DNA of 64,000 nt from Escherichia phage 121Q, in the sequence record NC_025447.1; one strand, 5' to 3'. Positions 38,613 to 52,194 of the stretch are shown one piece after another. A model generated the notes under the pieces. That model did no database searches. It saw only the letters and a program-made list of their open reading frames with translations, and had not been told where the DNA came from. A program made the translations under genes and the position numbers. Numbering within the stretch: the stretch's first letter is position 1; every line of letters begins with the position of its first letter.

Positions 38613-38613
38613 T

Positions 38614-39194: not shown

Positions 39195-39307
39195 TTAAAC
39201 ACAAGTAGACAGGGGAAGCTCCTAGTGAACAACCTTTATGTACAGGCGAATTGTTAAAATTCAGCCTGGACAAATGCGATCACTAGGATTCTCCCCAGGC
39301 TAAACCC

Positions 39308-39400
39308 CGTAATCATAGGTAGTCATAAGTAATCATATATAAACATTTAAGTAATCATTTATAATCACTGTAGTGATCAGTAGTGATCAGTAGTGAGTAC
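39308..39400. repeat. GTAATCA repeat cluster plus three tandem TAGTGATCAG units
   Basis: GTAATCA-like heptamer about five times in 60 bp, then TAGTGATCAG x3 (GATC-containing); more GTAATCA copies at 39520-39560. Confidence 0.6.
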
Positions 39401-40229
39401 TAGAGTACAGGAATGTTCACGTTTAATCAAGAACGTAGCAGTACTGATATGCCACTAAGTAGGCAGAGGAAGTCTGCCGTACTTTGTAGTTTCCAAGCTC
39501 CTTTTCCATTTTGCAAATTACATCAAATGTAATCAAAAGTAATCACGCAATGATTAGTACTGAATTATTACTTTCACCTTAATTTCAATTACCCCTTTAC
39601 CCTTCGGGGTAAAATTCAATTACCCCTTGAGGCTCCAGCAAAAAGTTGGTTAGTACTCCATCCTAAATCTCGATCCTAAAAATTTTGGAGTACCTATGAA
39701 ATAAAAGTTGGATCTTCGAAAGTTGAAATTTACGTTGGGACATATAGGATTTGTGGGATATAATGAGTTTTGTAGCGATACAGATTATACGATTTCAGTA
39801 CTGAATAATGAAAGAAAGCTATTGACATTATGATTCAGTACTGTATAATGTTCTACATAGAGAGATGAGTTGCTGCGAACAATTCATTTACTCTACCTCC
39901 TGTCGTGAGACAGTACAGAAAAGATAGTTCCTCCTGTGGTGGTACATCTTTTTGAACCTCATATGAAAATCGTAATAACAGTACTGATATTAACAGAATG
40001 GTGTCAGTACTGATTTTAATCTAAAGCATTATGCCACCAGCTTGTGCTGGTGGATTCCCTCTAACAGTATTCAGTACTACATGATAGTCTTCATCCTCCT
40101 ACAGTAACAGTGAGGGCTATTGTGGCAGTACTGAATACTCCCTTTCAAAAGATAGATCTATGGTATAGTACTGACGGATTTTGGGCGTAGTAACCCTAGG
40201 TTGAATTTAGACGTAGAGATGTCTAGACC

Positions 40230-40362
40230 TCCAGATGGCTGGAAGTAAAGATGGCTATCCCTCTAGGCGGCTGGATGGCTAGATTTCTAGATGGCTGTAC
40301 TGCTAGACGTTTGGACGGCTAAACGGCTAGATGGTTACACGTCTGGATGTATAGACGGCTAA
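40230..40362. repeat. iteron-like array of about 9 short direct repeats (CTAGATGGCT / GGACGGCT units)
   Basis: (A/G)GA(T/C)GGCT recurs about 9 times in 130 bp, immediately followed by an AT-rich tract (40363-40392). Confidence 0.6.
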
Positions 40363-40545
40363 ATCAAAATTTTTATTTTATTTTTTCCAATAGTTCCCCT
40401 ACCGCGTGGGGATGGTTTCCCCGCAGTATCTGGAGTTAGATTTTTCTGAATCTGGAATCATTATCCCCGTTTTCGCCTGGTATGTCAACCGTCTGGATGA
40501 ATAATTTTAAAAAATAATCTAGTACTGAATTTTGGGCGTAACTAT

Positions 40546-40558
40546 GCACCCGGTGGGC
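40546..40558 (-). repeat. dispersed CTAGCCCACNGGGTGC element copy (reverse orientation)
   Basis: GCACCCGGTGGGC followed by TAG. Confidence 0.5.
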
Positions 40559-41076
40559 TAGAGTCTTTCTCGACTTGATAAAAATATTATAGCAGTACTG
40601 AATTATAAAAGCAATAGCCTGGATGTAAAAAGTTTTAATTAATTTGCTTGTCATCCTGGGGCGTACTATGGTACTATGATTCAGTACTGAGAAAGTGCTA
40701 TGACCTGCTAAGGTGCGGGAGTGTATCCTTTTTAAATTTACTGAATTTTGGGCGTAATTCCGCACCCCCTGGGGTATCCGCTTTCTCGCGTCTATGTAGT
40801 AATTATACGCTTTTTTAGTACTGAGTCAATAGCTAAAAACAAAATAATTGAAAATAATTTAACGCGTTTAAACGGCCCGTAAAGCCCTGGTTAGCTGGTG
40901 GCGGTGCAAATGTATAGCTTAGGTGTATTAATGCGTTAGAATGCGATTGAGGACGTTTTACGGGGTATAGTACTGATTCAGTACTGAATAGTAGTACTGA
41001 AAGATTGTTCTCCCTGGATTGTTCCAGTACTCCTATATAGAAAGAAAACTATTTTAAAAGTATTTGTAGAAAGTAC

Positions 41077-41104
41077 TTGCAAAGTATTGGGAAAGGTGTA
41101 GAAT
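41077..41104 (+). promoter_or_regulatory. sigma70-like early promoter TTGCAA-N16-TAGAAT plus stem-loop
   Basis: AAGTACTTGCAAA -35 block, TAGAAT -10, GTTTTACATC, then ACGGGGGAAACGCTCCCGT hairpin. Confidence 0.55.
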
Positions 41105-41160
41105 GTTTTACATCGAGACGGGGGAAACGCTCCCGTTGCACTTTAAAAGAGATTAAAACG

Positions 41161-41523
41161 ATGGCGACTCAAATCAATACTATCATGCTTAACCTGGTTT
41201 CTTTCCGTGAAGAGATGAAAGATCTTCCCGCTGAGACTGTACGGATTCACATTGCAGCTTATCGGGAATTGATTGCAATGCTGCCGCTTAAGCGTGAACA
41301 GTATGCCGCTACTGCTATGCTCGATGCAATGATCCATAAGATGATCCAGACTGATTTAACGATGGCTTATCAGTACATGGGCGAAATGTTTGCAGTGTAT
41401 AGCAAGCCAGTACCAGGAATGGAAAGTACAGAAGTATTGCACGGCTTAAACTTAAAACAAGATGCATGGGATAATATGCCTCGTTTCCTGGTATGGGCTG
41501 ACAGTGGCAAGATTTACGAATAA
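41161..41523 (+). CDS. hypothetical protein
   Basis: start MATQINTIM after promoter/stem-loop (track ORF starts 41077 inside the promoter). Confidence 0.55.
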   Translation: MATQINTIMLNLVSFREEMKDLPAETVRIHIAAYRELIAMLPLKREQYAATAMLDAMIHKMIQTDLTMAYQYMGEMFAVYSKPVPGMESTEVLHGLNLKQDAWDNMPRFLVWADSGKIYE

Positions 41524-41537
41524 GTTTAATAAAGTAC

Positions 41538-41565
41538 TTGCAAACTAAGTTTAAAAGCGTATAAT
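41538..41565 (+). promoter_or_regulatory. sigma70-like early promoter TTGCAA-N16-TATAAT plus stem-loop
   Basis: TTGCAA 41538, TATAAT 41560, GGGGAATAGTTCCCC hairpin, SD AAGAGGA. Confidence 0.6.
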
Positions 41566-41617
41566 GTTTTATATCAGGTGGGGAATAGTTCCCCACTATA
41601 ATAAAGAGGATTTAAAA

Positions 41618-41857
41618 ATGGCTAAATCAAAAATGTTCTTAGGACACAAAAACAAAACTCATTGGAATGTTTCCTTATGGATTAATAATGACGAATCATT
41701 ATACCGGTTGGCCCAGGACTTTATTGCCGCTAACACTAATCGTAATGATGCGGCCCGTCATATGATGCTATTTTTAGAACAGACTGGACAAGATAAAACT
41801 CCAGACGGCTTTAAGTATAGCACTACTGCGATCCGTGCGGCGATGGTTGGAATGTAA
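41618..41857 (+). CDS. hypothetical protein
   Basis: ATG 41618 after SD AGAGGA. Confidence 0.6.
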   Translation: MAKSKMFLGHKNKTHWNVSLWINNDESLYRLAQDFIAANTNRNDAARHMMLFLEQTGQDKTPDGFKYSTTAIRAAMVGM

Positions 41858-41940
41858 GAGAATAGATTAAAAGTACTATTGCACGGTGATAGTACTTTAT
41901 AATAAAGTTCTTTTTGTACAACAACGATAGGGGTAACAGC

Positions 41941-42207
41941 ATGACTATTACATATTTTGCAACGCGTGAACTTGCTCGGATTGCCGCACGCCAGGACGGG
42001 GCGACGTTTAAAGATATGGGCGTACAATCTGAACGTGGTAAACGTTGGGCCGTAGTAAAGCAAAGTACAGCCCGATCAATTCAGTACTGGCGAGCGGCTT
42101 TAAAGCGTCCTGATAGTGTATCGCGTCGCGTGGTAGAAATAAAGCACGACCGCAAGGGCAATCGCGTTACCGTGTACCGTACTAAAAAGATTGCAGTACT
42201 TGAATAA
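41941..42207 (+). CDS. hypothetical protein, paralog of 53998 gene
   Basis: FATRELARIAARQDGATFKDMG..RWAV and HDRKGNRVTVY blocks shared with 53998-54393 protein. Confidence 0.6.
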   Translation: MTITYFATRELARIAARQDGATFKDMGVQSERGKRWAVVKQSTARSIQYWRAALKRPDSVSRRVVEIKHDRKGNRVTVYRTKKIAVLE

Positions 42208-42214
42208 AAAGTAC

Positions 42215-42242
42215 TTGCAAACTATGTTTAATGGCGTATAAT
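42215..42242 (+). promoter_or_regulatory. sigma70-like early promoter TTGCAA-N16-TATAAT plus stem-loop
   Basis: TTGCAA 42215, TATAAT 42237, GCGGGAACACTTCCCGC hairpin, SD GGAG. Confidence 0.6.
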
Positions 42243-42294
42243 GTTTTACATCGAGAGCGGGAACACTTCCCGCCTATAACCTGGAGTAATAAAA

Positions 42295-42525
42295 ATGACT
42301 AATATGTATATGACTGAAGTTAAAACCGTAAAAGATACTACCACGAATAAAACTACTTACTTACAGCGGATCTGCGGTGTATGGCAACGTATCAGCAAAT
42401 CAAAGTACTTTAAATTAACATCATATGCCAATCGTTCGGATTCATTCAGTACTGAAATAAAAGGTAATAAAGTACACCAATACGGCACTTATTATTATTA
42501 TAGCCTGGACGCGATTGCAGTATAA
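42295..42525 (+). CDS. hypothetical protein
   Basis: 76-aa ORF after promoter/stem-loop/SD. Confidence 0.55.
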   Translation: MTNMYMTEVKTVKDTTTNKTTYLQRICGVWQRISKSKYFKLTSYANRSDSFSTEIKGNKVHQYGTYYYYSLDAIAV

Positions 42526-42608
42526 GTAGTTTACAAATCTTTACAATTGCCAGTATTGACTTATTTTGTCAGTACTGGCATAATGTATCTATTGAAACGA
42601 ACAATTTG

Positions 42609-42621
42609 GCCCACGGGGTGC
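42609..42621 (+). repeat. dispersed CTAGCCCACNGGGTGC element copy
   Basis: GCCCACGGGGTGC followed by GGGAGTGTATCTAT. Confidence 0.5.
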
Positions 42622-42666
42622 GGGAGTGTATCTATAGAAAAAGTAGTTTATTACAGTTACAATTGT

Positions 42667-42678
42667 GCACCCGGTGGG
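42667..42678 (-). repeat. dispersed element copy (reverse orientation)
   Basis: GCACCCGGTGGGTTAG; paired with the 42609 copy as an inverted repeat. Confidence 0.5.
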
Positions 42679-42775
42679 TTAGCTGTTGTCATGGGGTATA
42701 TTATGCCAGTACTTGATAATGCTGTCAATACTTTTTTTTTACTATTCAGTACTGAAAACTATTTTTAAAAAGTAC

Positions 42776-42803
42776 TTGCAAACTATGTTTAAAGGCGTAT
42801 AAT
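42776..42803 (+). promoter_or_regulatory. sigma70-like promoter TTGCAA-N16-TATAAT driving a non-coding element
   Basis: TTGCAA 42776, TATAAT 42798; no ORF before the next promoter. Confidence 0.5.
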
Positions 42804-42809
42804 GTTTTA

Positions 42810-42890
42810 CATCAGGACGGGGAATGAAATAAGTAACTCCCTGTTAAGTAGTCCAGGAGTAAGACATACGAAAACCTCCCCTGATAAAAT
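42810..42890 (+). ncRNA. candidate small RNA or leader element (copy 1)
   Basis: about 80 nt behind a promoter, GGACGGGGA...TCCCCTG closing stem, no ATG-initiated ORF; near-identical copy at 52784-52858. Confidence 0.3.
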
Positions 42891-42893
42891 AGT

Positions 42894-42921
42894 TTGACAA
42901 AGATTTATAAAAGCGTATAAT
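42894..42921 (+). promoter_or_regulatory. sigma70-like promoter TTGACA-N16-TATAAT
   Basis: TTGACA 42894, TATAAT 42916, SD GAGGG before ATG 42954. Confidence 0.6.
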
Positions 42922-42953
42922 ACTTACATCAACTACTGAATGAGGGTTACAAA

Positions 42954-43565
42954 ATGAAAACTATCACTACTACTACTTTCGTTATGGCTTTTTCTGAACT
43001 GAACGCAGAACAACAAACGGCGGCTATCGAACTGGTTCGGGATCGGGAACGTGCAAGTGAGGATAATTTCTTTGCTGAGTCAGTACTGGAATACTATAAA
43101 GAAACAGTACTACCAGAATACGGCATAGATGAAGCTGAATTGCAATACAGTGGTTTTTGGTCGCAAGGTGACGGTGCATCAATCAGTACTGACCACGTTG
43201 ACGCTGAGAAGTTTTTACGCAAGGTTAAGGCGTTAACGAAATATCGTTCCATCCGTCACCTGTTGAACGAAGATGATTTGGAAATGAGTGTAGAACGTTC
43301 CCAATCGCGTTATGCACACGAAAACACGGTAGGCGGTTGCGTTGATACTCGCTACACTGATTTAACTGTAAAACAGGCGGCGTTAGCTGAGGAACTGGAA
43401 AATTTACTGACTGACACGATCCGAGAATTATCTTGTAAGCTGTACCGTGATTTAGAAAATGCTTATGAAGACCAGTTTACTACTGAAAACATTGTAGGAC
43501 TGATTGAGGGTAACGAATATCAATTTAATGTTATCGATGGTGTAGTAGAATCTATCGCATATTAA
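42954..43565 (+). CDS. hypothetical acidic protein (203 aa)
   Basis: long ORF behind consensus promoter. Confidence 0.65.
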   Translation: MKTITTTTFVMAFSELNAEQQTAAIELVRDRERASEDNFFAESVLEYYKETVLPEYGIDEAELQYSGFWSQGDGASISTDHVDAEKFLRKVKALTKYRSIRHLLNEDDLEMSVERSQSRYAHENTVGGCVDTRYTDLTVKQAALAEELENLLTDTIRELSCKLYRDLENAYEDQFTTENIVGLIEGNEYQFNVIDGVVESIAY

Positions 43566-43623
43566 TTCAGTACTGAATCACTGGCGGGGAATGGTTCCCG
43601 CCTATATCCCAGGAGTAAGAGAA

Positions 43624-43860
43624 ATGATCGAACAAATCAAAACTACAACGCCAAACGTAACGGGTACAGTATCACACTTCATTGGTGACGATTCGCGGGG
43701 CGTTCCTTATTGTGCAGTACATGTAAACAAAAATGGCGACTACTGGCTAACGGTTTACGGTTCTTATTCTTTCGGGCGTAGTGCACACCAAAAGATCCTG
43801 GATAAAGTACAACCAACGGGTAAAAATATCACCGCTGAGATGTTTTATAAAAAGCACTAA
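43624..43860 (+). CDS. hypothetical protein
   Basis: ATG 43624 after GGCGGGGAATGGTTCCCGCC stem-loop and SD AGGAG. Confidence 0.6.
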   Translation: MIEQIKTTTPNVTGTVSHFIGDDSRGVPYCAVHVNKNGDYWLTVYGSYSFGRSAHQKILDKVQPTGKNITAEMFYKKH

Positions 43861-43867
43861 AAAGTAC

Positions 43868-43895
43868 TTGCAAAGTAATTAGATTAACGTATAAT
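43868..43895 (+). promoter_or_regulatory. sigma70-like early promoter TTGCAA-N16-TATAAT plus stem-loop
   Basis: TTGCAA 43868, TATAAT 43890, GCGGGAATAGTTCCCGC hairpin. Confidence 0.6.
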
Positions 43896-43945
43896 ACTTT
43901 ATATCGAGAGCGGGAATAGTTCCCGCCTTTACTGAGGATTATCTA

Positions 43946-44230
43946 ATGGGTAAAGTAATTAACTATACAGTACTAAGCAAGTCATTATCTATTAGCCAGT
44001 GCACCGATGGTTTTTGGCTGTACGATGAAACGCGTGGCATGAATTTAGCTATGCAGGAGAAAACTACTGATGCGGCATATCTTAAAGCACTGGAATACTA
44101 CCAGAAGCGTTTAAAGGAAGTAGAAAACGATTATAATAACCTGAAAGCGAAAGTAGATCATTTCGTCGGTCAATTCATTGACGATGACGAGGACGGGCAC
44201 TACTGCGACCGTTGCGGATCTTACAATTGA
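43946..44230 (+). CDS. hypothetical protein with C-terminal CxxC
   Basis: SD TGAGGA; ends HYCDRCGSYN. Confidence 0.6.
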   Translation: MGKVINYTVLSKSLSISQCTDGFWLYDETRGMNLAMQEKTTDAAYLKALEYYQKRLKEVENDYNNLKAKVDHFVGQFIDDDEDGHYCDRCGSYN

Positions 44231-44247
44231 GTACTGAGGATTATCTA

Positions 44248-44451
44248 ATGAGTGATTTAATTAAACGTATCAAAGAGCTTGAAGAAAAAGAATTGCAGTT
44301 GATCGGGTTACGGAATAAAGTATTCCATGATTTAGGTGGCTTCATTAATGCCTGGGATAGTGGCGATCCTGATGCGTTACCTGCTAACCGCCAGGCGATG
44401 ATCAATGATGTGCGTGGTGTCTTTGATTATGTTTTAAAGCAATTAAATTAA
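44248..44451 (+). CDS. hypothetical protein
   Basis: ATG 44248 with the same CTGAGGATTATCTAATG initiation region as the 43946 gene. Confidence 0.6.
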   Translation: MSDLIKRIKELEEKELQLIGLRNKVFHDLGGFINAWDSGDPDALPANRQAMINDVRGVFDYVLKQLN

Positions 44452-44459
44452 AAAAGTAC

Positions 44460-44487
44460 TTGCAATTAGTTTTCAGTACTGTATAAT
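44460..44487 (+). promoter_or_regulatory. sigma70-like early promoter TTGCAA-N16-TATAAT plus stem-loop
   Basis: TTGCAA 44460, TATAAT 44482, GGGGGAAATGGTTCTCCCC hairpin, SD AAGGAG. Confidence 0.6.
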
Positions 44488-44537
44488 AGTTTACATCAAG
44501 GGGGAAATGGTTCTCCCCACTAATAAGGAGTTTTACA

Positions 44538-44759
44538 ATGGCTAATATCACTACTCTTTCCCAGCTTGAAGCACTGGTTAAATCTATGCGGGAACATGCC
44601 GACAATATCGGCGTAGAAGATCCGGCTGTATGTTTTTGCGACGAAATAAATGATGATACGCTCGTCATTGCAGAAGTACAAGACGTTTCTAACTATTCAT
44701 CGCGTTACACTGGCGGCGTAGCAAAGAAAGGTGATTTTTGTTTATATCTTACTAAGTAA
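44538..44759 (+). CDS. hypothetical protein
   Basis: 73-aa ORF after promoter/stem-loop/SD. Confidence 0.6.
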   Translation: MANITTLSQLEALVKSMREHADNIGVEDPAVCFCDEINDDTLVIAEVQDVSNYSSRYTGGVAKKGDFCLYLTK

Positions 44760-44765
44760 TAACCA

Positions 44766-44792
44766 GGGGGATCAAACGATCCCCTTTATTTT
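44766..44792 (+). terminator. intrinsic terminator
   Basis: GGGGGATC-AAAC-GATCCCC hairpin then TTTATTTT. Confidence 0.7.
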
Positions 44793-44824
44793 GCAGTACT
44801 GAATCATTTAATAGACGGATCTAT

Positions 44825-44836
44825 GCACCCTGTGGG
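44825..44836 (-). repeat. dispersed element copy (reverse orientation)
   Basis: GCACCCTGTGGGTTAG inside an about 80-bp block also seen at 42667-42740. Confidence 0.5.
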
Positions 44837-45005
44837 TTAGTGACTATCTCGTCTTTATGTAGGTATTATGCCAGTACTGGATGCAGTTGTCAAGACTTTT
44901 TTTTCAAATACTTTTATATTAAAGTACTTGATAATAGTTTTTAAACGCGTATAATGTTTTACATCTAATCGGGAATACTCCCTAGTACTAACAAAGGATA
45001 TACAA

Positions 45006-45305
45006 ATGAAAACTGCAATCATCGCCCTGGCTTTATCTGTTTCCTCTTTCGCTGTTAACGCTTCCGTTGATGTACAGAAAGAAAAATTCATTCAGTGCAC
45101 TGTTGCAATGACTAACGAGGAAACGGCTGAGATCGTTACCAAATCCCTGGAACTGGCCCCTGCAATGTTTGCTAATGGCCCGTACCATGAAGAAGATGAT
45201 CAGGGTAGCACGACCATCTATTACGATGCAAAAAGTAAACGCGGTTCTGTCACTGTAATGGATACAGAGAAAGTTACATTCACTGGCGTAATTAATTGTT
45301 TATAA
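45006..45305 (+). CDS. secreted small protein, Cys-pair family
   Basis: signal peptide MKTAIIALALSVSSFAVNA; Cys in mature N-terminal region and Cys 2 aa from end. Confidence 0.65.
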   Translation: MKTAIIALALSVSSFAVNASVDVQKEKFIQCTVAMTNEETAEIVTKSLELAPAMFANGPYHEEDDQGSTTIYYDAKSKRGSVTVMDTEKVTFTGVINCL

Positions 45306-45322
45306 TATAGTACTGAATCACT

Positions 45323-45352
45323 AGCCCACTATAAGGAGTGGGCTTTTTTTAT
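45323..45352 (+). terminator. intrinsic terminator
   Basis: AGCCCACT-n6-AGTGGGCT hairpin then TTTTTTT. Confidence 0.75.
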
Positions 45353-45543
45353 TGTAGGATTGTAGTACTGGTATACTTTGAAAATAGTTTTAAAAAAGTA
45401 GTTGACATTACCAGGGAAAAGCGTAGAATGTATTACATCAAGACGGGGAACATTAAGTAGACCGCCAGTAAGTCGAATGAAAAACTGGACACGTCAAACA
45501 AACTTTGATAAACTAACTTAAACTTTAATTGAGGATTTATAAA

Positions 45544-46026
45544 ATGGCTAATGTAAAATCATTTCTGAAAGCACTGATTTCTAACGATACTGTCATTGCT
45601 GCTGAATTGCTGGCTGACCTGGATAATGATACCATGAAAGCAGTACGCAACAATTTTAACATTGCTTACAGTGAAGCGAAAGAACTACAAGCCAAAAAGG
45701 TAGCAGAACTGGAAGAACAGAAAAAAGCCCGTGAAGCAGAACTGCAAGCAACAATAGAAAGTATTCAGGCGGCGGTGTCTGGTTTAGATCTGGAAGTGGT
45801 TATTGAAATGGCACATAAAGCCCTGGCGGTTAAGTACGGTGAAGATAAGCCGGAATCTAAGCCTAAAAAATGGATTCAAGAACGTGTTACGGTTGTCCTT
45901 GATAACGGGGAAGAACATTTGATTCCTGTACGCGGTAACTGCATTGCGGTAGTACTGGATGCTATCAAAGAAAGCGGTATGACTCGCGAGGAATGGATCG
46001 AATCTCACCGCAAAATTGAAGCATAA
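45544..46026 (+). CDS. hypothetical protein, Lys/Glu-rich helical
   Basis: ATG 45544 with SD GAGGA; upstream TTGACA-N17-TAGAAT promoter at about 45407. Confidence 0.6.
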   Translation: MANVKSFLKALISNDTVIAAELLADLDNDTMKAVRNNFNIAYSEAKELQAKKVAELEEQKKAREAELQATIESIQAAVSGLDLEVVIEMAHKALAVKYGEDKPESKPKKWIQERVTVVLDNGEEHLIPVRGNCIAVVLDAIKESGMTREEWIESHRKIEA

Positions 46027-46047
46027 CATTTAAAGTACTGAATCACT

Positions 46048-46074
46048 AGCCCACTTATACAGTGGGCTTTTTTG
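46048..46074 (+). terminator. intrinsic terminator
   Basis: AGCCCACT-n5-AGTGGGCT hairpin then TTTTT; same element as 45323. Confidence 0.75.
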
Positions 46075-46300
46075 TGTCTATAGTATTCCATGCCGTCAGC
46101 ACCTCATAGAATCGATTCTAACGCATTAAACTGATTATCTGATGCATCGCCCTAGCTGGTGGAGTTAAGGCCGTTAGAATGCGATTGAGAGCGTTTAAAG
46201 TATTTTGCAAAAAGTAATAAAAAGTACTTGCACGATTCAGAGATTAGCGTATAATGTTTTACATCAAGGCGAAACACCTTAACTAACTGAGGATATAAAG

Positions 46301-46453
46301 ATGAATACTTATGAACTGGATTGTTTCACGTTACAAGTAATGTCAGTATGCAGCAAGAAAGATTGGTCATCAAAGGAATTTAAAGCAGTTATTGCGTGTG
46401 CAAAACACGGCAAGACTATCAATGAAACGGCATCAATCATTGATAAACTTTAA
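46301..46453 (+). CDS. hypothetical small protein (50 aa)
   Basis: not in ORF track; SD TGAGGA 8 nt before ATG; downstream of TTGCAC...TATAAT promoter. Confidence 0.45.
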   Translation: MNTYELDCFTLQVMSVCSKKDWSSKEFKAVIACAKHGKTINETASIIDKL

Positions 46454-46461
46454 AAAATAGT

Positions 46462-46489
46462 TTGACAATAGTTTTAAGTACTGTATAAT
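46462..46489 (+). promoter_or_regulatory. sigma70-like promoter TTGACA-N16-TATAAT
   Basis: TTGACA 46462, TATAAT 46484. Confidence 0.6.
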
Positions 46490-46522
46490 ATTTTACATCA
46501 ACTACTGAGAAGGATTTAAAAA

Positions 46523-46750
46523 ATGGCTATCATCATCACTTACGTATCTGGCACTACTGGCACTTCTAGCACTGTTGCAGTACTGACCAACAAGAAAGGT
46601 GCGGAACTTCATTCTGCAATGAATACCTGGGCGGTGAATGAGTTCGGTCAGTGGGCTAGTGTAGAATACATTGAAACCTATCAAGTGCCGTCTATTAGCT
46701 TAACTGATTTAGGTGTAGATCGTATCCTTTGCCTGGATGAATTAAACTAA
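46523..46750 (+). CDS. hypothetical protein
   Basis: 75-aa ORF, SD AAGGA. Confidence 0.6.
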   Translation: MAIIITYVSGTTGTSSTVAVLTNKKGAELHSAMNTWAVNEFGQWASVEYIETYQVPSISLTDLGVDRILCLDELN

Positions 46751-46835
46751 AAAGTACTTGCAAAGTAAATCGGATAAAGTATAATACATTACATCAAGGG
46801 GAGAAATGATTCTCCCCACTAAGAGGAAACTAAAA

Positions 46836-46979
46836 ATGAAAACTTGTCAATGTGGTAAAAAATCTATCACTGGTTTGAAACGGGGCGTTGCTCTTTGTCA
46901 GTATCACTATAACGCTCAAGTATGGGGTAAAGAGTGGGCAGACCAGGTGGAAGCTGTAAAGAAAGCAAAAAGTAAGTAA
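46836..46979 (+). CDS. small Cys-containing protein (47 aa), possible zinc ribbon
   Basis: not in ORF track; promoter, GGGGAGAAATGATTCTCCCC stem-loop, SD AGAGGAA; CQCG...LCQYH. Confidence 0.45.
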   Translation: MKTCQCGKKSITGLKRGVALCQYHYNAQVWGKEWADQVEAVKKAKSK

Positions 46980-47060
46980 AATTATTATCACAGTACTATT
47001 GACATAGTTTGATAGTACTGGCATAATAGATTTTATCAAGACAACTAAGAGGAAACAATA

Positions 47061-47273
47061 ATGGCTATCATTACTAAAATCAAAGTTAACAAATCACTGG
47101 TTAAACTTGAACAAGTGAAAGCAGGTTATAAAGTATCGTGGTGCGGTATGTATCGGATGTTCACCGATATAGACAATGCAATCAAGTACTACACTGACAC
47201 CGTTGCCTCATTCGTTCGTTCTGATGTAGTACTGGCAGTACATGCACATAAAGCAGCGAAAGAAAGTAAGTAA
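47061..47273 (+). CDS. hypothetical protein
   Basis: 70-aa ORF behind TATTGACA...GGCATAAT promoter, SD AGAGGAA. Confidence 0.6.
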   Translation: MAIITKIKVNKSLVKLEQVKAGYKVSWCGMYRMFTDIDNAIKYYTDTVASFVRSDVVLAVHAHKAAKESK

Positions 47274-47364
47274 AAATATTATCACAGTACTATTGATATA
47301 GTTTGATAGTACTGGCATAATAGATTTTATCAAGACAACACATATTAATTTAAGGAATACTAAA

Positions 47365-47688
47365 ATGGCTAAAACTATCATCAACACCGTTTCCCTGGCT
47401 GCAATCCGTGCAATCAATGTTGACGGTAAACGTTGGACTGATTCATATGGCAATACTTATCATTCTTGTCATGTAAGCGTCGAACTGGATAACGGTTTGA
47501 ATGATCTGGCGGTTGAATCATTTACTTATGGCTATGAAGATGCATATCAACAAACGGCGTTATCTCTCTTAAAGGAATCAGTAGACGGGCTTAATACTGA
47601 TGAAACCTCCCTTACTCGTTTGTGCAATGATCTTAATATCCCGTTGCATTGTACTGTACAGAATGTTAAACGCAAAAAAGATCTTTAA
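47365..47688 (+). CDS. hypothetical protein, paralog of 53575 gene
   Basis: RWTDSYGNTYHSCHVS and FTYGY blocks shared with 53575-53898 protein. Confidence 0.65.
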   Translation: MAKTIINTVSLAAIRAINVDGKRWTDSYGNTYHSCHVSVELDNGLNDLAVESFTYGYEDAYQQTALSLLKESVDGLNTDETSLTRLCNDLNIPLHCTVQNVKRKKDL

Positions 47689-47768
47689 TTAGCTTTACTT
47701 TATGCAGATACTTTTATATAGTGTCTGCATAGGGGAAAGAAATTAAATTAACTTAAGAGGATCGTATA

Positions 47769-48038
47769 ATGAAAAATATCAGTACTTTAATCGATGCAGG
47801 TACACATGTTCGTCGGTCAATGGTTGCAACCAGTACTACAAAACAAGTAGCAAGCGGTTATCTTGTATTTGTACACGAAGGAAAGCTATTGGAACGTTCA
47901 ATCAATTTTGATGTTAAAAACAATTGCCGTTTTATTATTTTTAAGCGTGAACAATATAAAATTGATTTGCCAGCAAAGCCCATAAGCGGGGCGTACAACG
48001 TGCAATCATTGTTTGAGCGTCAACCATACACCTATTAA
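47769..48038 (+). CDS. hypothetical protein
   Basis: SD AAGAGGA; preceded by ATGCAGATAC/GTGTCTGCAT hairpin. Confidence 0.6.
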   Translation: MKNISTLIDAGTHVRRSMVATSTTKQVASGYLVFVHEGKLLERSINFDVKNNCRFIIFKREQYKIDLPAKPISGAYNVQSLFERQPYTY

Positions 48039-48089
48039 TCAAAACATCGTTAGCGGTCGATTTAGGCCGCTTATATTGGGGATTATACC

Positions 48090-48260
48090 ATGAACGTTAA
48101 TCAAGTACTGAATGAAGTTGAAAGCATCATTAAACCAATGAAACGTATTGATGCTGTTCCTACACCGGAAGAATGCCGCCTTTATGAGCGTTACAGTGTG
48201 GAACAAGCCCAGGAAATGGCCCGTATCCGTCCGGTTGCCAGTACTGATAAGGCGGCGTAA
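48090..48260 (+). CDS. hypothetical small protein (56 aa)
   Basis: not in ORF track; ATG with SD GGGGA. Confidence 0.45.
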   Translation: MNVNQVLNEVESIIKPMKRIDAVPTPEECRLYERYSVEQAQEMARIRPVASTDKAA

Positions 48261-48261
48261 T

Positions 48262-48471
48262 ATGCTTACTGTACAGGATAAGATCGACATCTTAAAGGTT
48301 AATATGTATGTGATTGATGCAGATCCTGAAAAAGTATTTGCATACGATGATTCTAATCGTAGTCCTTTTTATTGTAGTCATGTAGTTGGATACGTGCCGT
48401 TAGGGTATGTTATCGAAAGAGTGGTTGATGAAGCATACAAACATTTTTTAGAAAATAATACTTGCAATTAG
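48262..48471 (+). CDS. hypothetical protein
   Basis: ATG 48262 immediately after upstream stop (track start 48148 lies inside the previous gene). Confidence 0.5.
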   Translation: MLTVQDKIDILKVNMYVIDADPEKVFAYDDSNRSPFYCSHVVGYVPLGYVIERVVDEAYKHFLENNTCN

Positions 48472-48538
48472 TTTTCAGTACTGTATAATTGTTTACATAG
48501 AGGGGGGAATGGTTCTCCCCGATACTAGGAGAATCAAA

Positions 48539-48691
48539 ATGAAACAATACAACGCTCGGTTTGATGTTACTATCGGCAACGGCAAAGGTCAATTTTCTTT
48601 CAGTACTCGTAGGAGTTATACAGAAAACTTCCTGCGTAATTGTGCACTGACCGCCGCACAAATTAAACATTACTTTCAGGCTAAAAAATGA
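48539..48691 (+). CDS. hypothetical small protein (50 aa)
   Basis: promoter, GGGGGGAATGGTTCTCCCC stem-loop, SD AGGAG, ATG 48539. Confidence 0.55.
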   Translation: MKQYNARFDVTIGNGKGQFSFSTRRSYTENFLRNCALTAAQIKHYFQAKK

Positions 48692-48777
48692 AATCATTGG
48701 CTTATTACAGTTCGGCCCTGGTCGGTGCATTGATCGCGGCATTGTTAGTAACTTATCTATTCTTTATGGTGATTTAA

Positions 48778-48915
48778 ATGAATCCTAACGGTTTAATTTA
48801 CAGTACTCCTAAAACGAAAGCAGATAAAGCGAAAGCACGTAAAGCGAAAGTAAAGCAGTACATCAAGCAAGGCATGACACGCAAAGCGGCATTGCTTAAA
48901 GCTAAAAATAAATGA
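48778..48915 (+). CDS. small basic protein (45 aa), Lys/Ala-rich
   Basis: follows a 29-aa hydrophobic mini-ORF (48688-48777); terminator immediately downstream. Confidence 0.35.
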   Translation: MNPNGLIYSTPKTKADKAKARKAKVKQYIKQGMTRKAALLKAKNK

Positions 48916-48922
48916 AAAAAGT

Positions 48923-48946
48923 GGTTGACTTCGGTCAGCCATTTTG
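48923..48946 (+). terminator. intrinsic terminator, UUCG-loop hairpin
   Basis: GGTTGACTTCGGTCAGCC then ATTTT. Confidence 0.7.
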
Positions 48947-48978
48947 CTATTATATATTCATTGAGAGATAGCTCACTA

Positions 48979-48991
48979 GCCCACAGGGTGC
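48979..48991 (+). repeat. dispersed CTAGCCCACAGGGTGC element copy
   Basis: ACTAGCCCACAGGGTGCAGGAGTGTATCTAT. Confidence 0.55.
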
Positions 48992-49138
48992 AGGAGTGTA
49001 TCTATTGTATAATGATTGAGTACTGAAAACTATTTTAAAGTATTTGATAAAAAGTACTTGCAAACTATCTCAATGAGCGTATAATGTTTTATATCGCAAG
49101 GGGAAACGGTTTCCTCTCCAAATAAAAGGAATACCAAA

Positions 49139-49477
49139 ATGATCTCTATCGCTCAATCTAACTTTGAAAACGAAATCATCGCTCAGGCACTGCGTTTAAA
49201 TGATGGTCGGGCCGAAATCAATTACGGTTTCAATAGTGGTGGATGTGAAAAATATCAGTACTTTGTAACGGCTGATGGCTGTGTCCTGGGTATCAATACA
49301 GTTATTGTAAACATTCAGAAAATTAATTTCAATGATCCAGACGATAGCCAGTTTTACATCACGGGCGTAGACGTGAACTATGAGGATGACTCACTAACTG
49401 ATGATCACACTGGCGAGAAGTTAGAAAGTGCATACGGTGAAGATGATTATCAGTCAGTACCAGAAGATTTTGAATAA
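49139..49477 (+). CDS. hypothetical acidic protein
   Basis: promoter, GGGGAAACGGTTTCCTC stem-loop, SD AAGGA. Confidence 0.6.
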   Translation: MISIAQSNFENEIIAQALRLNDGRAEINYGFNSGGCEKYQYFVTADGCVLGINTVIVNIQKINFNDPDDSQFYITGVDVNYEDDSLTDDHTGEKLESAYGEDDYQSVPEDFE

Positions 49478-49491
49478 TATTAAAAAATAGT

Positions 49492-49519
49492 TTGACAATA
49501 GTTTTTAGTACTGTATAAT
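49492..49519 (+). promoter_or_regulatory. sigma70-like early promoter TTGACA-N16-TATAAT plus stem-loop
   Basis: TTGACA 49492, TATAAT 49514, GGGGAGAATAGTTCTCCCC hairpin. Confidence 0.65.
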
Positions 49520-49572
49520 TAATTACATCAAGGGGAGAATAGTTCTCCCCACTAACAGAGAGAGAAAACAAA

Positions 49573-49785
49573 ATGGCTAATATCCGCACTGTACTGAAAA
49601 ATGCAAAACAAGTTTTATTTTCTGATCATGAAAATTTCAACAAGGATATCACTGGCGTTCGGAATATCAAAGATGTAAAAAATGTTATGGGTATCTATTG
49701 CAATATGAAACGTGTTGGCACGTTCGGCGATAAAGTACTATACCAGGCAGGGGATTACAATTTTACACTGACTATCATTAACTAA
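49573..49785 (+). CDS. hypothetical protein
   Basis: 70-aa ORF after promoter/stem-loop/SD. Confidence 0.6.
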   Translation: MANIRTVLKNAKQVLFSDHENFNKDITGVRNIKDVKNVMGIYCNMKRVGTFGDKVLYQAGDYNFTLTIIN

Positions 49786-49876
49786 AAATATTATCACAGT
49801 ACTATTGACAACGTTTGATAGTACTGGCATAATAACTTTTATCAAGACAACGCATATTAATTTAAGGAATACTAAA

Positions 49877-50056
49877 ATGGCTATTATCGCAAAAACTGAA
49901 ATCATCGGCCTGGATTCTATCATCATGACGTTTGAAGATCAAAAAGGGATGTATGTAGTTTCCTATGGTGATTATGTTCGGGAGTATGAAACAGTAGACG
50001 AAGCCTTTGAAAGTTACATTCGCCAGGTTAATAAAGCATACGACGATTACCGCTAA
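49877..50056 (+). CDS. hypothetical small protein (59 aa)
   Basis: ATG 49877 with the same AAGGAATACTAAAATGGCT initiation region as the 47365 gene; track start 49805 lies in the promoter. Confidence 0.55.
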   Translation: MAIIAKTEIIGLDSIIMTFEDQKGMYVVSYGDYVREYETVDEAFESYIRQVNKAYDDYR

Positions 50057-50155
50057 AATATATTACCAGTACTATTAAATCTATTGACAATGTTTGATAG
50101 TACTGTATAATAAGTTTTATAAACAGTAGTTAACTTAACCTAAGAGAGAAAAATC

Positions 50156-50299
50156 ATGACAGCATTAGATTCATTCATCGACGCAGTACTGGCAAAAACT
50201 GGCGAGGATCTGACCGCAGAACAATACGCGATGATCGAACAATGTCAGCAAGACGGTAAATCGGTGAAAGATACTGTTAAGATTATCCGCAAGATGTAA
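50156..50299 (+). CDS. hypothetical small protein (47 aa)
   Basis: not in ORF track; SD AAGAGAG; terminator-like hairpin follows. Confidence 0.45.
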   Translation: MTALDSFIDAVLAKTGEDLTAEQYAMIEQCQQDGKSVKDTVKIIRKM

Positions 50300-50305
50300 G
50301 ATTAT

Positions 50306-50334
50306 AGCCCACTGGTTAACGCTGGTGGGCTTTA
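50306..50334 (+). terminator. terminator-like hairpin
   Basis: GCCCACTGG-n5-CTGGTGGGC imperfect hairpin followed by TTTAATCATTT. Confidence 0.45.
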
Positions 50335-50404
50335 ATCATTTACCCTATACAATGCCAGTACTAAACCGTTTAACTCGTTAGAATGCGTTACAGGACGTTT
50401 AACA

Positions 50405-50602
50405 ATGATTAGCATGAAATCAGTACAAAAACAAATAGAAACATTATCAAAAATTAAACGTAAACAGTACTCATTAGAATATACAATCAATGGTAACTAT
50501 CATCTAATGAAAGAAAATAATTTTATAGTCATTGATGAATCATTGCAGATCATTAGTATAGTACTGAAAGCATTAATCAATGACAGAAAAAAGTTAAAAT
50601 AA
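50405..50602 (+). CDS. hypothetical protein
   Basis: 65-aa ORF, weak SD. Confidence 0.4.
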   Translation: MISMKSVQKQIETLSKIKRKQYSLEYTINGNYHLMKENNFIVIDESLQIISIVLKALINDRKKLK

Positions 50603-50662
50603 TCTATTGACAATATTATCCAGTACTGGCATAATACTTACATCAAGACGAGAACGTCACTA

Positions 50663-50675
50663 ACCCATAGGGTGC
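50663..50675 (+). repeat. dispersed element copy (variant)
   Basis: ACCCATAGGGTGCACAAATGTAACTAT. Confidence 0.45.
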
Positions 50676-50689
50676 ACAAATGTAACTAT

Positions 50690-50780
50690 ATAATATCGAT
50701 CAATAAATGATCAAAAAAGTACTGGATCAATTTAGCATAAGGCGTATAATTCTGATCAAATCTTGATCAAAGGCAATAAA
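50690..50780. repeat. cluster of five TGATCAA (GATC) sites
   Basis: CGATCAA, TGATCAA, GGATCAA, TGATCAA, TGATCAA within about 90 bp of non-coding DNA. Confidence 0.5.
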
Positions 50781-50931
50781 CGTAGTTGAAATTATATAGA
50801 AAGTACAAAGGCGTTACCATTCGTGGTAATGCTGGGGAATATGTAGTATCATACGGTTTGAATAAAATCAGTACTAGTAGTATTATTGTAGCATTACAGT
50901 ACTATAGTATTTTTATAATGAGGTTAAAATA

Positions 50932-51189
50932 ATGGCTGTTGGATTCGCGAAGGACGGGGCCGAGCAAGACGAGATTAACGCAGTGATTCAGGCCGCTGTA
51001 AACCACGCTAGAACGCAAATTAACGCACAAATAGAATCACTGATACATTGCCTCGACTGCGGCGATAAAATCCCTGAGAATCGCCGCCTGGCCGTTAAGG
51101 GGTGTAAGTACTGCATCACTTGCCAGGCTGATCATGATAGCATATTCAAACGCAATCCCCGTAATTGTTGGCATAGATCTATGAGATAA
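50932..51189 (+). CDS. TraR/DksA-family C4 zinc-finger protein
   Basis: CLDCGDKIPENRRLAVKGCKYCITCQ matches the TraR/DksA C4 zinc-finger pattern (compare F-plasmid TraR CEACGNPIPEARRK...CVECQ); SD GAGG. Confidence 0.75.
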   Translation: MAVGFAKDGAEQDEINAVIQAAVNHARTQINAQIESLIHCLDCGDKIPENRRLAVKGCKYCITCQADHDSIFKRNPRNCWHRSMR

Positions 51190-51195
51190 AAAGTA

Positions 51196-51223
51196 TTGAC
51201 AGTACTGTTAGTTAGTGTATAAT
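51196..51223 (+). promoter_or_regulatory. sigma70-like promoter TTGACA-N16-TATAAT
   Basis: TTGACA 51196, TATAAT 51218, SD TGAGGA. Confidence 0.6.
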
Positions 51224-51252
51224 ATTTTATATCTTAACTGAGGATTGAAATC

Positions 51253-51609
51253 ATGGGTATACAACATATCACGCGTACTACAGACAATGGTGAGATCACT
51301 GGCTATCAAGTACAAGGCAAAGTAGCACAATTGCAGTACTGGTTTGTTAAACGTGGCATTGTTGCACCGGATCTTGATTATGATCGTGTAGCGTTTATTG
51401 ATTCTCTTTATGTTGATCCCGATAATCGCGGTAACGGTGAAGGTACTGAGTTAATGAATGCCTTTATTGATGCCGCCGATGATTCAGATTGTATCATCTT
51501 AGAATGCGATACTGGAGAAGATAACGAGTTTAATCTTAAAGAATGGTATGAAGGTTTTGGATTTGAAGTACTGATTAACTGCGAATATCCTATAATGATT
51601 TTATCCTAG
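51253..51609 (+). CDS. GNAT-family N-acetyltransferase-like protein
   Basis: VDPDNRGNGEGTELMNAFIDAA resembles GNAT motif A; WYEGFGFE motif. Confidence 0.55.
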   Translation: MGIQHITRTTDNGEITGYQVQGKVAQLQYWFVKRGIVAPDLDYDRVAFIDSLYVDPDNRGNGEGTELMNAFIDAADDSDCIILECDTGEDNEFNLKEWYEGFGFEVLINCEYPIMILS

Positions 51610-51688
51610 TACTTGCAATTAGTTTTAAGTACTGTATAATAGTTTACATGAAGGGGAGAATAGTTCTCCCCACTACAAGGAAAGACAA

Positions 51689-52175: not shown

Positions 52176-52194
52176 TATATAAGGAGTACAGCTT

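What the first reader, a model, noticed from the sequence alone, without database searches (positions are those of the whole stretch)
39308..39560. Clustered GTAATCA heptamers and three tandem TAGTGATCAG units
GTAATCA-like heptamers recur about seven times within about 250 bp, and TAGTGATCAG is repeated three times in tandem (each unit has a GATC site). This looks like a binding-site array for a sequence-specific protein in the same non-coding region as the iterons.
Basis: seen in the sequence. Interest (0 to 1): 0.4.

Follow-up and report, generated by a model that had tools for sequence, protein, structure and literature searches.

The report
Repeat array flanking the phage genome end
The clustered heptamers are real and non-random, and they sit on both sides of the exact point where this giant E. 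coli phage's DNA is cut to make its left end, so they most likely belong to the signal that guides that cut.

Summary
The window comes from an Asteriusvirus-type jumbo coliphage (about 90% identical to PBECO4, UB and G17). The repeats are real. There are 5 exact GTAATCA, and 12 sites within one mismatch, in 253 bp against a mean of 1.3. No 7-mer reached 5 copies in 100 shuffles. TAGTGATCAG is exact only twice; units 3 and 4 are degenerate and lack GATC.

Six related records that include their roughly 21-kb direct terminal repeats (DTR) begin or end at the same base, AGTAGGCAGAGG, which is window 39458 and lies inside the finding. Nine heptamers, spaced 10.5 bp apart on average (39309-39399), lie 59-149 bp outside the DTR. 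Two direct copies and one inverted copy (39529-39557) lie 72-100 bp inside it.

Across 13 of the 14 relatives, length differences between the array and the cut are multiples of 10 bp (119 to 169 bp), even where the intervening sequence is unrelated. Both DTR boundaries, here and in another genus, carry RCTA^ in inverted orientation.

Best reading (about 0.55): a two-part, helically phased protein-binding array that positions site-specific terminase cleavage. It works like the P1 and SPP1 pac sites but is not a member of either family. GATC is not conserved, so Dam control is unlikely. The binding protein is unknown.

The parts
39206..39302 (.). Conserved inverted repeat (arms 39206-39228 and 39280-39302) immediately upstream of the array. 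Its 3' arm lies 48 or 78 bp from heptamer 3 in relatives.
   Evidence: I5
39309..39399 (+). Upstream array of nine direct heptamers: GTAATCA, GTAGTCA, GTAATCA, ATAAACA, GTAATCA, ATAATCA, GTGATCA, GTGATCA, GTGAGTA. Mean spacing is 10.5 bp. It lies 59-149 bp outside the terminal repeat.
   Evidence: conservation
39371..39410 (+). Four 10-bp tandem units: TAGTGATCAG x2 exact, then TAGTGAGTAC and TAGAGTACAG. They overlap heptamers 7-9. Copy number and sequence vary among relatives.
39423..39429 (+). Solitary TTAATCA in the variable spacer.
39439..39457 (+). Cut-proximal block CAGTACTGATATGCCACTA. CC(A/G)CTA immediately before the cut is shared with fENko-Kae01 and XbC2.
39457..39458 (.). Inferred left-end cleavage point: CCACTA^AGTAGG. 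Base 39458 is the first base of the virion DNA and of the terminal repeat.
   Evidence: Records EcMJ, fEgEco12 and CRJP21 start, and G17 ends, at this base. [quoted passage not shown]
39458..39483 (.). Terminal palindrome AGTAGGCAGAggaagTCTGCCGTACT, which starts exactly at +1.
   Evidence: DNA fold -6.9 kcal/mol, z -4.9; fENko-Kae01 also has a palindrome starting at +1
39529..39557 (.). Downstream cluster inside the repeat: GTAATCA (39529) and GTAATCA (39539) direct, TGATTAG (39551-39557) inverted. It spans +72 to +100 from the end. It is nearly invariant in relatives; vB_Ec-M-J has three direct copies.
39458..59638 (+). Direct terminal repeat as represented once in the window (20,181 bp).
   Evidence: DTR lengths of 20.7-21.5 kb in relatives (PMC13070987, PMC11895373)
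59633..59644 (.). Inferred right-end cleavage point: TAACCT^TAGCGA, cut between 59638 and 59639. Read on the other strand it is TCGCTA^AGGTTA, the same RCTA^AG core as the left cut but inverted.
   Evidence: fENko-Kae01 right end ATGCCT^TAGCCA

Best explanation
The heptamers are the protein-binding part of the cis-acting signal that generates the left physical end of this jumbo phage's genome. In replicated DNA (concatemer or circle), the unique region runs into the single copy of the terminal repeat at window 39458. A phage DNA-recognition protein is the likely binder: a small-terminase-like factor, possibly with accessory proteins, whose identity is unknown. It would bind cooperatively to nine heptamers that lie on one face of the helix just outside the repeat, and to two direct plus one inverted heptamer about 70-100 bp inside it. 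This would bend or wrap roughly 250 bp and present the sequence CCACTA^AGTAGG, at the foot of a terminal palindrome, to the T4-gp17-like large terminase nuclease. The same RCTA^ core, inverted, is cut at the right boundary (59638|59639). There no heptamer array exists, so the array marks only one of the two cuts, either the recognition (initiation) end or a termination checkpoint. Shown here: the repeats, their phasing, their conservation, the 10-bp length quantisation, and their coincidence with a terminus that was determined experimentally in relatives. Inferred: that a protein binds them, that it belongs to the terminase system, and the direction of packaging.
For: (1) Terminus. vB_Ec-M-J (annotated DTR 1-21525), fEgEco12 and CRJP21 start at AGTAGGCAGAGGAAGTCTGCC, and G17 ends at it in reverse complement. 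This is window 39458. ELP-22 and E9.1 place a conserved element at 176-242, exactly as fEgEco12 and CRJP21 do. The fEgEco12 ends were confirmed by restriction digests. Sharanji's DTR by PhageTerm is 20,668 bp, equal to the G17 position computed. (2) The heptamers flank that point: 9 upstream and 3 downstream, with strong local enrichment. (3) The mean spacing of 10.5 bp equals one helical turn. In small-terminase rings, adjacent HTH motifs are about one turn of B-DNA apart, and about 100 bp of pac DNA is proposed to wrap around the ring (PMC4737164). (4) Among 14 relatives, heptamer 3 plus its flank, the cut block and the downstream cluster are invariant or nearly so. This holds even in A4, whose surrounding sequence has diverged. 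(5) The distance from heptamer 3 to the cut is 119, 129, 139, 149, 159 or 169 bp in 11 relatives and one base more in two that carry an extra A at the cut. This holds across non-homologous replacement modules and a non-repetitive 30-bp insertion. The distance from the hairpin to heptamer 3 is 48 or 78 bp. BLAST span differences across 34 records fall at 0, +10/11, +30/31, +60 and +70; two further values, +51 and -1, each reflect a 31-bp unit gained or lost inside the repeat. (6) The alternative upstream module (G17, PBECO4, UB, fEgEco12, SHEFM2K) lacks the decamers but again carries GAATCA, TGATTAT and TGATTAG. (7) The cut core RCTA^ occurs at both boundaries in inverted orientation, here and in fENko-Kae01, and at the XbC2 left end. 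SPO1-like DTR phages likewise have inverted-symmetric ends (PMC5418689). (8) Architectural precedent: P1 pac has 4+3 hexamers flanking its cut (PMC10028697).
Against: No binding or cleavage data exist for this phage, and the terminus is assigned by homology. No small-terminase homologue is recognised in Rak2-like phages; CBB has only a gp17-like TerL plus a truncated TerL-like ORF. The heptamer is specific to Asteriusvirus. fENko-Kae01, Munch and XbC2 share the cut core and a 43-67-bp element inside the repeat but have no GTAATCA array. That conserved element could therefore be the true conserved recognition site. Heptamers 1, 2 and 6 are lost or replaced in some relatives. Part of the 10-bp quantisation could arise from slippage of 10-bp tandem units rather than from selection. 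The right end is cut without any such array.
Confidence: 0.55

Rival explanations
1. Operator array for a phage transcription regulator that controls the early promoters at the left end of the genome, for example shut-off of host-takeover genes. In this reading the coincidence with the terminus is incidental.
For: The array lies in a 1.9-kb non-coding stretch that holds a perfect sigma-70 consensus promoter at 39822-39849 and several other promoter-like sites. It also holds many AGTACTGA motifs. Phased direct repeats are also typical of cooperative repressors.
Against: No promoter-like site lies within 39300-39720; the nearest is about 165 bp beyond the downstream cluster. In injected linear DNA the nine-site array is separated from the left-end promoters. 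It lies about 20 kb inside the right end, before the right repeat copy. The length quantisation is measured to the cut-proximal block.
Confidence: 0.15
2. Site for another end-associated nucleoprotein complex. One possibility is machinery that duplicates the terminal repeat at the concatemer junction by nicking and strand displacement, as proposed for T7. Another is a centromere-like (parC-type) site that positions phage DNA.
For: The palindrome starts exactly at +1 in two clades. The phased units in two clusters resemble, from my own knowledge, the two sets of five 11-bp repeats of R1 parC. The 10-bp quantisation argues for a face-of-helix complex but does not say which one.
Against: No partition or nickase genes were identified near the site; the proteins scanned in the window matched RCC1-repeat, virion-structural, endonuclease and ATPase-like families or none. 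XbC2 lacks the terminal palindrome.
Confidence: 0.15
3. Replication origin element: iteron-like repeats that recruit an initiator.
For: These are direct repeats in a non-coding region next to a second repeat array (8-bp period, 40210-40345). The cumulative GC skew has a local minimum near 39.0-39.6 kb.
Against: The units are 7-bp cores at 10-12-bp spacing, not 17-22-bp iterons. There is no DnaA box within one mismatch and no IHF consensus in 39195-41077. No initiator gene is adjacent. The skew minimum is explained by the unusual composition of the small-ORF family at 35.4-39.2 kb.
Confidence: 0.07
4. Functionless tandem-repeat debris generated by slippage and recombination at a recombinogenic genome end.
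For: Copy number of the 10-bp units varies among close relatives, and the stretch just upstream of the cut is a mosaic of alternative modules.
Against: Several heptamers and the whole downstream cluster are invariant in 14 genomes, including divergent A4. The motif recurs in the non-homologous module. Non-repetitive indels (30 bp, module swaps) also preserve the 10-bp register.
Confidence: 0.08

Closest known systems
Bacteriophage P1 pac site (HEX4 / HEX3 hexamers, PacA-PacB pacase)
   Same: A short motif (TGATCA/G in P1, GT(A/G)ATCA here) is repeated in two clusters on either side of the terminase cut, within a site of about 160-250 bp (PMC10028697). Two units here are literally GTGATCA.
   Different: In P1 every hexamer carries GATC and cleavage is Dam-regulated. 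Here only 2 of 12 sites have GATC, and they are not conserved. P1 pac lies inside pacA, has an IHF site and starts headful packaging. This site is non-coding, has no IHF consensus and marks a precise end of a roughly 20-kb direct terminal repeat.
SPP1 / SF6 pac (pacL - pacC - pacR with box a/b/c direct repeats bound by the small-terminase ring)
   Same: Direct repeats lie on both sides of the cut. About one helical turn separates the contact points, and about 100 bp of DNA is proposed to wrap around a ring of HTH domains (PMC4737164). The nine-heptamer array here spans 91 bp at a 10.5-bp pitch.
   Different: SPP1 pac overlaps the terminase gene region, and the phage packages by headful. No small-terminase homologue is known for Rak2-like phages. 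Binding was not tested here.
Sequence-specific ends of direct-terminal-repeat phages (T7/T3, SPO1-like Bacillus phages)
   Same: The ends are exact and invariant across isolates. The sequences at the two ends are related by inversion: 5'-AGGTTTT at both ends in SPO1-like B. cereus phages (PMC5418689), and RCTA^AG(T/G) at both ends here.
   Different: As far as I found, no phased heptamer array or 10-bp spacing rule has been described for those phages. The repeat here is about 20 kb, in a 350-kb genome with a T4-gp17-like terminase.
Lambda cos (cosN nicking site plus cosB R-sites for gpNu1, IHF site)
   Same: Repeated small-subunit binding sites sit at a fixed, spacing-sensitive distance from a precise cleavage site (from my own knowledge of lambda cos).
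   Different: Lambda makes 12-nt cohesive ends. Its R sites lie on one side only, with an IHF bend. Here there are terminal repeats, sites on both sides and no IHF consensus.

Membership tests
P1-type pac site | Short repeated motif in two clusters flanking the terminase cleavage point | tested here: met
   Nine sites at 39309-39399 and three at 39529-39557 flank 39458. The cleavage point is inferred from six related records.
P1-type pac site | Every repeat carries GATC, and cleavage is controlled by Dam methylation | tested here: not met
   Only the sites at 39373 and 39383 contain GATC. They are replaced by GATTA or GAACA, or are absent, in most relatives. GATC is not enriched in the window (134 against 165 expected).
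P1-type pac site | Located within the small-subunit gene (pacA), with an IHF site between the clusters, and initiating headful packaging | tested here: not met
   There is no ORF of 40 aa or more in 39195-39707 and no WATCAANNNNTTR there. The ends are exact and the genome is terminally repeated, not permuted.
SPP1-type pac (small-terminase ring wrapping phased repeats) | Direct repeats on both sides of the cut, at about one helical turn spacing | tested here: met
   The spacings are 10,10,10,12,10,12,10,10 upstream and 10 downstream.
SPP1-type pac (small-terminase ring wrapping phased repeats) | Bound by the phage small terminase | not testable with these tools
   No TerS homologue is reported for Rak2-like phages. 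This needs EMSA, footprinting or pull-down.
Site-specific terminus of a direct-terminal-repeat phage | Identical end position in independent isolates, coinciding with the boundary of the repeat | tested here: met
   EcMJ, fEgEco12, CRJP21, ELP-22 and E9.1 (start) and G17 (end) all map to window 39458. G17's start equals fEgEco12's end, which is window 59638.
Site-specific terminus of a direct-terminal-repeat phage | The end determined experimentally in this very phage | not testable with these tools
   No reads or virion DNA are available for the window's phage. The assignment rests on homology (91-95% identity around the site).
Iteron-type replication origin | 17-22-bp iterons with DnaA box(es) and an adjacent initiator gene | tested here: not met
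   The cores are 7 bp at a 10-12-bp pitch. No DnaA box within one mismatch lies in 39195-41077. The flanking ORFs are 60-aa paralogues or hypothetical proteins.
parC-type plasmid centromere | Two clusters of 10-11-bp phased repeats bound by a ParR adaptor encoded next to a ParM-like filament protein | tested here: inconclusive
   The repeat geometry is compatible. No partition genes were seen among the window proteins scanned, but the remaining roughly 290 kb of the genome was not examined.

The most novel reading that the evidence does not exclude
The array, the cut block, the terminal palindrome and the downstream cluster together form a previously undescribed kind of packaging site. In it a length-quantised (10 bp per step), helically phased nucleoprotein 'ruler' gives a T4-gp17-type terminase, sequence-independent in T4 itself, a single-base-precise cut at RCTA^. 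The same core, inverted and without the array, is cut at the far boundary, which would explain how roughly 20-kb direct terminal repeats are generated in Rak2-like jumbo phages.
Probability: 0.3. Interest if true: 0.65.

Novelty: new variant of a known kind. Interest (0 to 1): 0.5.

Why it matters
Published work on Asteriusvirus and Rak2-like jumbo phages gives the lengths of the terminal repeats but not what defines their boundaries. If the reading here is right, it supplies three things. First, a base-precise cut motif shared by both ends and by at least two genera. Second, a candidate recognition array. Third, a simple, testable spacing rule: 10-bp insertions tolerated, 5-bp insertions not. 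That would make it directly testable how a T4-like terminase became site-specific. It would also allow correct re-orientation of the many permuted GenBank records of this group. Finally, it would define the minimal cis element needed to package engineered DNA into 350-kb-capacity capsids.

Tried and rejected
1. Dam/GATC control as in P1: rejected, because the GATC-bearing units are not conserved and GATC is not enriched.
2. Structured RNA or tRNA: no tRNA in the window. There are no Rfam matches at gathering score or at E<=1 in 39100-41200.
3. Promoter inside the array: none found.
4. DnaA boxes and IHF sites: none in the non-coding stretch.
5. Exact-pattern scan of IMG/VR for the terminal 21-mer: 0 hits, so all comparative data come from GenBank phage records.
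6. A heptamer array at the right boundary: none. Only a lone GTAATCC and unrelated ATGCGT repeats occur there.
7. GTAATCA arrays in other genera: absent. fENko-Kae01 instead has two tandem AAAAGTACTA units at +25 to +44.
8. Hairpin (RNA-like) reading of the conserved 43-bp element: the XbC2 changes are not compensatory (my reading), so it more likely acts at the DNA/protein level.
9. GC-skew minimum as origin evidence: confounded by the odd composition of the small-ORF family.
10. Literature searches for a described packaging site in Asteriusvirus found none.

Full report
**What the window is.** The 2.2 kb around the finding match 40 GenBank phage records at 87-92% identity. All are jumbo coliphages and Salmonella phages of the PBECO4/121Q/G17 group, genus Asteriusvirus. 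The finding lies in a 1.9-kb stretch with no ORF of 40 aa or more between 39195 and 39707. Upstream of it is a run of tandem ~60-aa ORF paralogues (35358-39194, + strand). No tRNA genes and no Rfam families are found.

**Checking the observation.**
- Exact GTAATCA occurs on the + strand at 39309, 39329, 39351, 39529 and 39539.
- Allowing one mismatch, there are 12 sites in 39300-39560. The window-wide mean is 1.28 per 253 bp (sd 1.2) and the maximum elsewhere is 6.
- For T[AG]ATCA on both strands there are 10 sites against a mean of 0.33 (Poisson 3e-12).
- In 100 dinucleotide-preserving shuffles of the whole window, no 7-mer reached 5 copies within 253 bp.
- GTAATCA is not over-represented in the window as a whole (18 against 15.9 expected). 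The signal is clustering.
- Nine upstream sites start at 39309, 19, 29, 39, 51, 61, 73, 83 and 93. That is 84 bp over 8 intervals, or 10.5 bp, one helical turn. TRF reports period-10 arrays.
- TAGTGATCAG is exact only twice (39371, 39381). Units 3 and 4 are TAGTGAGTAC and TAGAGTACAG and carry no GATC.

"Three units, each with GATC" is overstated.

**The decisive context: the genome end.** Several related records matched the region twice. Those records include both copies of a roughly 21-kb direct terminal repeat (DTR).
- vB_Ec-M-J carries an annotated repeat_region 1-21525.
- fEgEco12 has a 20,993-bp DTR found by PhageTerm and confirmed by restriction digests (PMC13070987).
- Sharanji has 20,668 bp by PhageTerm (PMC11895373).
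- G17 has terminal redundancies of about 20 kb from sequence coverage (PMC6563267).

The records of vB_Ec-M-J, fEgEco12 and CRJP21 all begin AGTAGGCAGAGGAAGTCTGCC, and G17 ends with its reverse complement. ELP-22 and E9.1 place a conserved element at 176-242 from their starts, exactly as fEgEco12 and CRJP21 do. That 21-mer occurs once in the window, at 39458.

The other boundary is ...GGGTAACCT, at the end of fEgEco12 and, in reverse complement, at the start of G17. It maps to window 59638. The window therefore carries one copy of the repeat, 39458-59638.

The finding (39308-39560) straddles the left physical end. Nine heptamers lie 59-149 bp outside the repeat. Two direct copies and one inverted copy (39529, 39539, 39551-39557) lie 72-100 bp inside it.

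**Comparative anatomy.** I aligned the junction from the window and 13 relatives. These parts are invariant or nearly so:
- heptamer 3 with its flank (GTAATCATATATAAACATTT);
- the cut context CACTA|AGTAGGCA;
- the downstream AATCAAAAGTAATCAC...TGATTAG. This is kept even in phage A4, whose first ~100 bp of the repeat have otherwise diverged.

The stretch between heptamer 4 and about 15 bp before the cut is mosaic. Nine genomes, including the window, have the decamer-type module. In it the decamers are TAGTGATCAG (one or two copies), TAGTGATTAG or TAGTGAACAG. Five genomes (G17, PBECO4, UB, fEgEco12, SHEFM2K) have an unrelated module that nevertheless again contains GAATCA, TGATTAT and TGATTAG. 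GATC is thus not conserved, but the TAATCA/TGATTA core is.

**A 10-bp spacing rule.** The distance from heptamer 3 to the cut is 119, 129, 139, 149, 159 or 169 bp in 11 genomes. It is 130 and 160 in two genomes that carry one extra A at the cut, and 177 in one "UNVERIFIED_ORG" record that has several 1-bp gaps in the alignment.

The events behind these differences include more than gain or loss of 10-bp tandem units. There is also a non-repetitive 30-bp insertion, two further 10-bp insertions, and exchange of the two non-homologous modules at equal length. Upstream, the distance from the conserved hairpin to heptamer 3 is 48 or 78 bp.

BLAST spans over 34 records give length differences of 0, +10/11, +30/31, +60 and +70. 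The two other values (+51, -1) each reflect a 31-bp unit gained or lost inside the repeat. Slippage explains the tandem-unit events but not the others. I read this as selection to keep the array, the cut block and the elements inside the repeat on the same face of the helix.

**The cut sites.** Each is written from the non-packaged flank to the packaged DNA:
- left end here: CCACTA^AGTAGG;
- right end here, other strand: TCGCTA^AGGTTA;
- fENko-Kae01 (a different group; DTR by PhageTerm), left: CCGCTA^TATCTT;
- fENko-Kae01, right: TGGCTA^AGGCAT;
- XbC2 (Mimasvirus), left: CCACTA^TATCTG.

All five share RCTA^ in exact register. The left and right sites of one genome are not homologous to each other, so this is a shared cleavage core used in inverted orientation at the two boundaries. 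SPO1-like Bacillus phages with DTRs show the same kind of inverted-symmetric ends (PMC5418689).

In Asteriusvirus and in fENko-Kae01 a palindrome starts exactly at +1 of the left end (DNA folds of -6.9 kcal/mol, z -4.9, and -4.2 kcal/mol, z -2.45). XbC2 and the right end have none.

**Mechanism proposed.** The geometry is a roughly 90-bp run of one-turn-spaced sites, a second small cluster on the other side of the cut, and a strict phase relation to the cut. This is the geometry of terminase recognition sites.
- P1 pac has seven TGATCA/G hexamers as 4+3 around its cut (PMC10028697).
- SPP1/SF6 pac has direct repeats in pacL and pacR around pacC. The HTH domains of its small-terminase ring are about one helical turn apart, and about 100 bp of DNA is thought to wrap around the ring (PMC4737164).

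I therefore propose that the heptamers recruit and orient a multimeric DNA-recognition protein that presents RCTA^ to the gp17-like large terminase. The right boundary lacks any heptamer cluster. So the array marks only one of the two cuts, either packaging initiation or a termination checkpoint. The direction cannot be decided from sequence.

**Caveats.**
- Nothing was tested biochemically.
- No small terminase is recognised in this phage group. CBB has TerL plus a truncated TerL-like ORF (PMC5259590).
- The heptamer is genus-specific. A 43-67-bp element further inside the repeat (39633-39700) is the only part conserved across genera, and it could be the conserved recognition site.

**Rivals.**
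- *Operator array for early transcription.* This is weakened because no promoter-like site lies within 39300-39720. In injected linear DNA the nine-site array is also about 20 kb away from the left-end promoters.
- *Iteron-type origin.* The units are too short, DnaA and IHF sites are absent, and no initiator gene is adjacent. The local GC-skew minimum is confounded by the odd composition of the small-ORF family.
- *Functionless slippage debris.* This is contradicted by the conservation and by non-slippage indels keeping the register.
- *Another end-associated complex* (repeat duplication, DNA positioning). This cannot be excluded.

**Comparison and novelty.** The site works like P1 or SPP1 pac but fails their membership tests. 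It shows no Dam dependence, does not lie inside a terminase gene, has no IHF site, and has a precise end with a long DTR rather than headful packaging. It does meet the tests for a site-specific DTR terminus.

The papers I read on this group (fEgEco12, Sharanji, G17, CBB) report DTR lengths only. I found no description of boundary motifs, heptamer arrays or a spacing rule. I rate it a new variant of a known kind. Interest is 0.5. Confidence is about 0.95 that the region contains the left genome end and about 0.55 that the heptamers are part of the end-generating signal.

Noticed in passing
whole window; densest 38000-60000: The palindrome AGTACT (often CAGTACTG or AGTACTGA) occurs 271 times against 22 expected: 10-17 copies per 2 kb across 38-58 kb (8 in the last DTR bin, 58-60 kb), 4-9 before that and 0-3 after 60 kb. 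Its flanks show no promoter-like consensus. It is also dense at the left ends of fENko-Kae01, Munch and XbC2. Function unknown.
   Followed up: partly
39633-39700 (core 39652-39694): The element AGTACTCCATCCTAAATCTCGATCCTAAAAATTTTGGAGTACC is 82-93% conserved in phages of other genera, always 54-161 bp from their left ends. In UE-S1, A4 and ph0011 both ATCCTAAA half-repeats changed together to ATCGTAAA. This suggests a protein-binding site whose specificity has co-evolved.
   Followed up: partly
   Followed up: no
39822-39849: A perfect sigma-70 consensus promoter (TTGACA, 16 nt, TATAAT) reads rightwards, 365 bp from the left genome end, with CAGTACTG in its spacer. This fits early transcription of first-entering DNA.
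   Followed up: no
35358-39194: About 17 tandem ~60-aa ORF paralogues lie on the + strand and have negative GC skew, opposite to the other + strand genes of the window. They are annotated as hypothetical proteins in relatives.
   Followed up: no
21089-35291, - strand: A tandem block of about eleven 250-430-aa ORFs; the five I scanned match RCC1-repeat families (PHROG 4219, Pfam RCC1/RCC1_2).
   Followed up: partly
39581-39642: A 31-bp direct repeat AATTCAATTACCCCTT... (two copies here) varies in copy number among relatives: one more in ph0011, one fewer in Turkey5. It contains a TTACCCC...GGGGTAA hairpin.
   Followed up: no
L014, L015 and L020 (TH47, UE-S1, ph0011), the position homologous to window 39309-39328: A small palindromic insertion (ctctacagagaagc...gcttctctttgtcata) replaces heptamer 1 in three relatives, with a net length change of exactly +30 bp.
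   Followed up: partly
59480-59640: The inner side of the right repeat boundary carries three AATGCGT/TATGCGT repeats and a long inverted repeat AAAAAAGTCAAGG...CCTTGACTTTTTT. fENko-Kae01 has repeated TTTTTACCT(A/T)AGT near its right end. These may be right-end-specific signals.
   Followed up: no
28475-28560: A dense CACCACC/ACCACCA repeat (11 copies in 253 bp) lies inside a - strand ORF.
   Followed up: no
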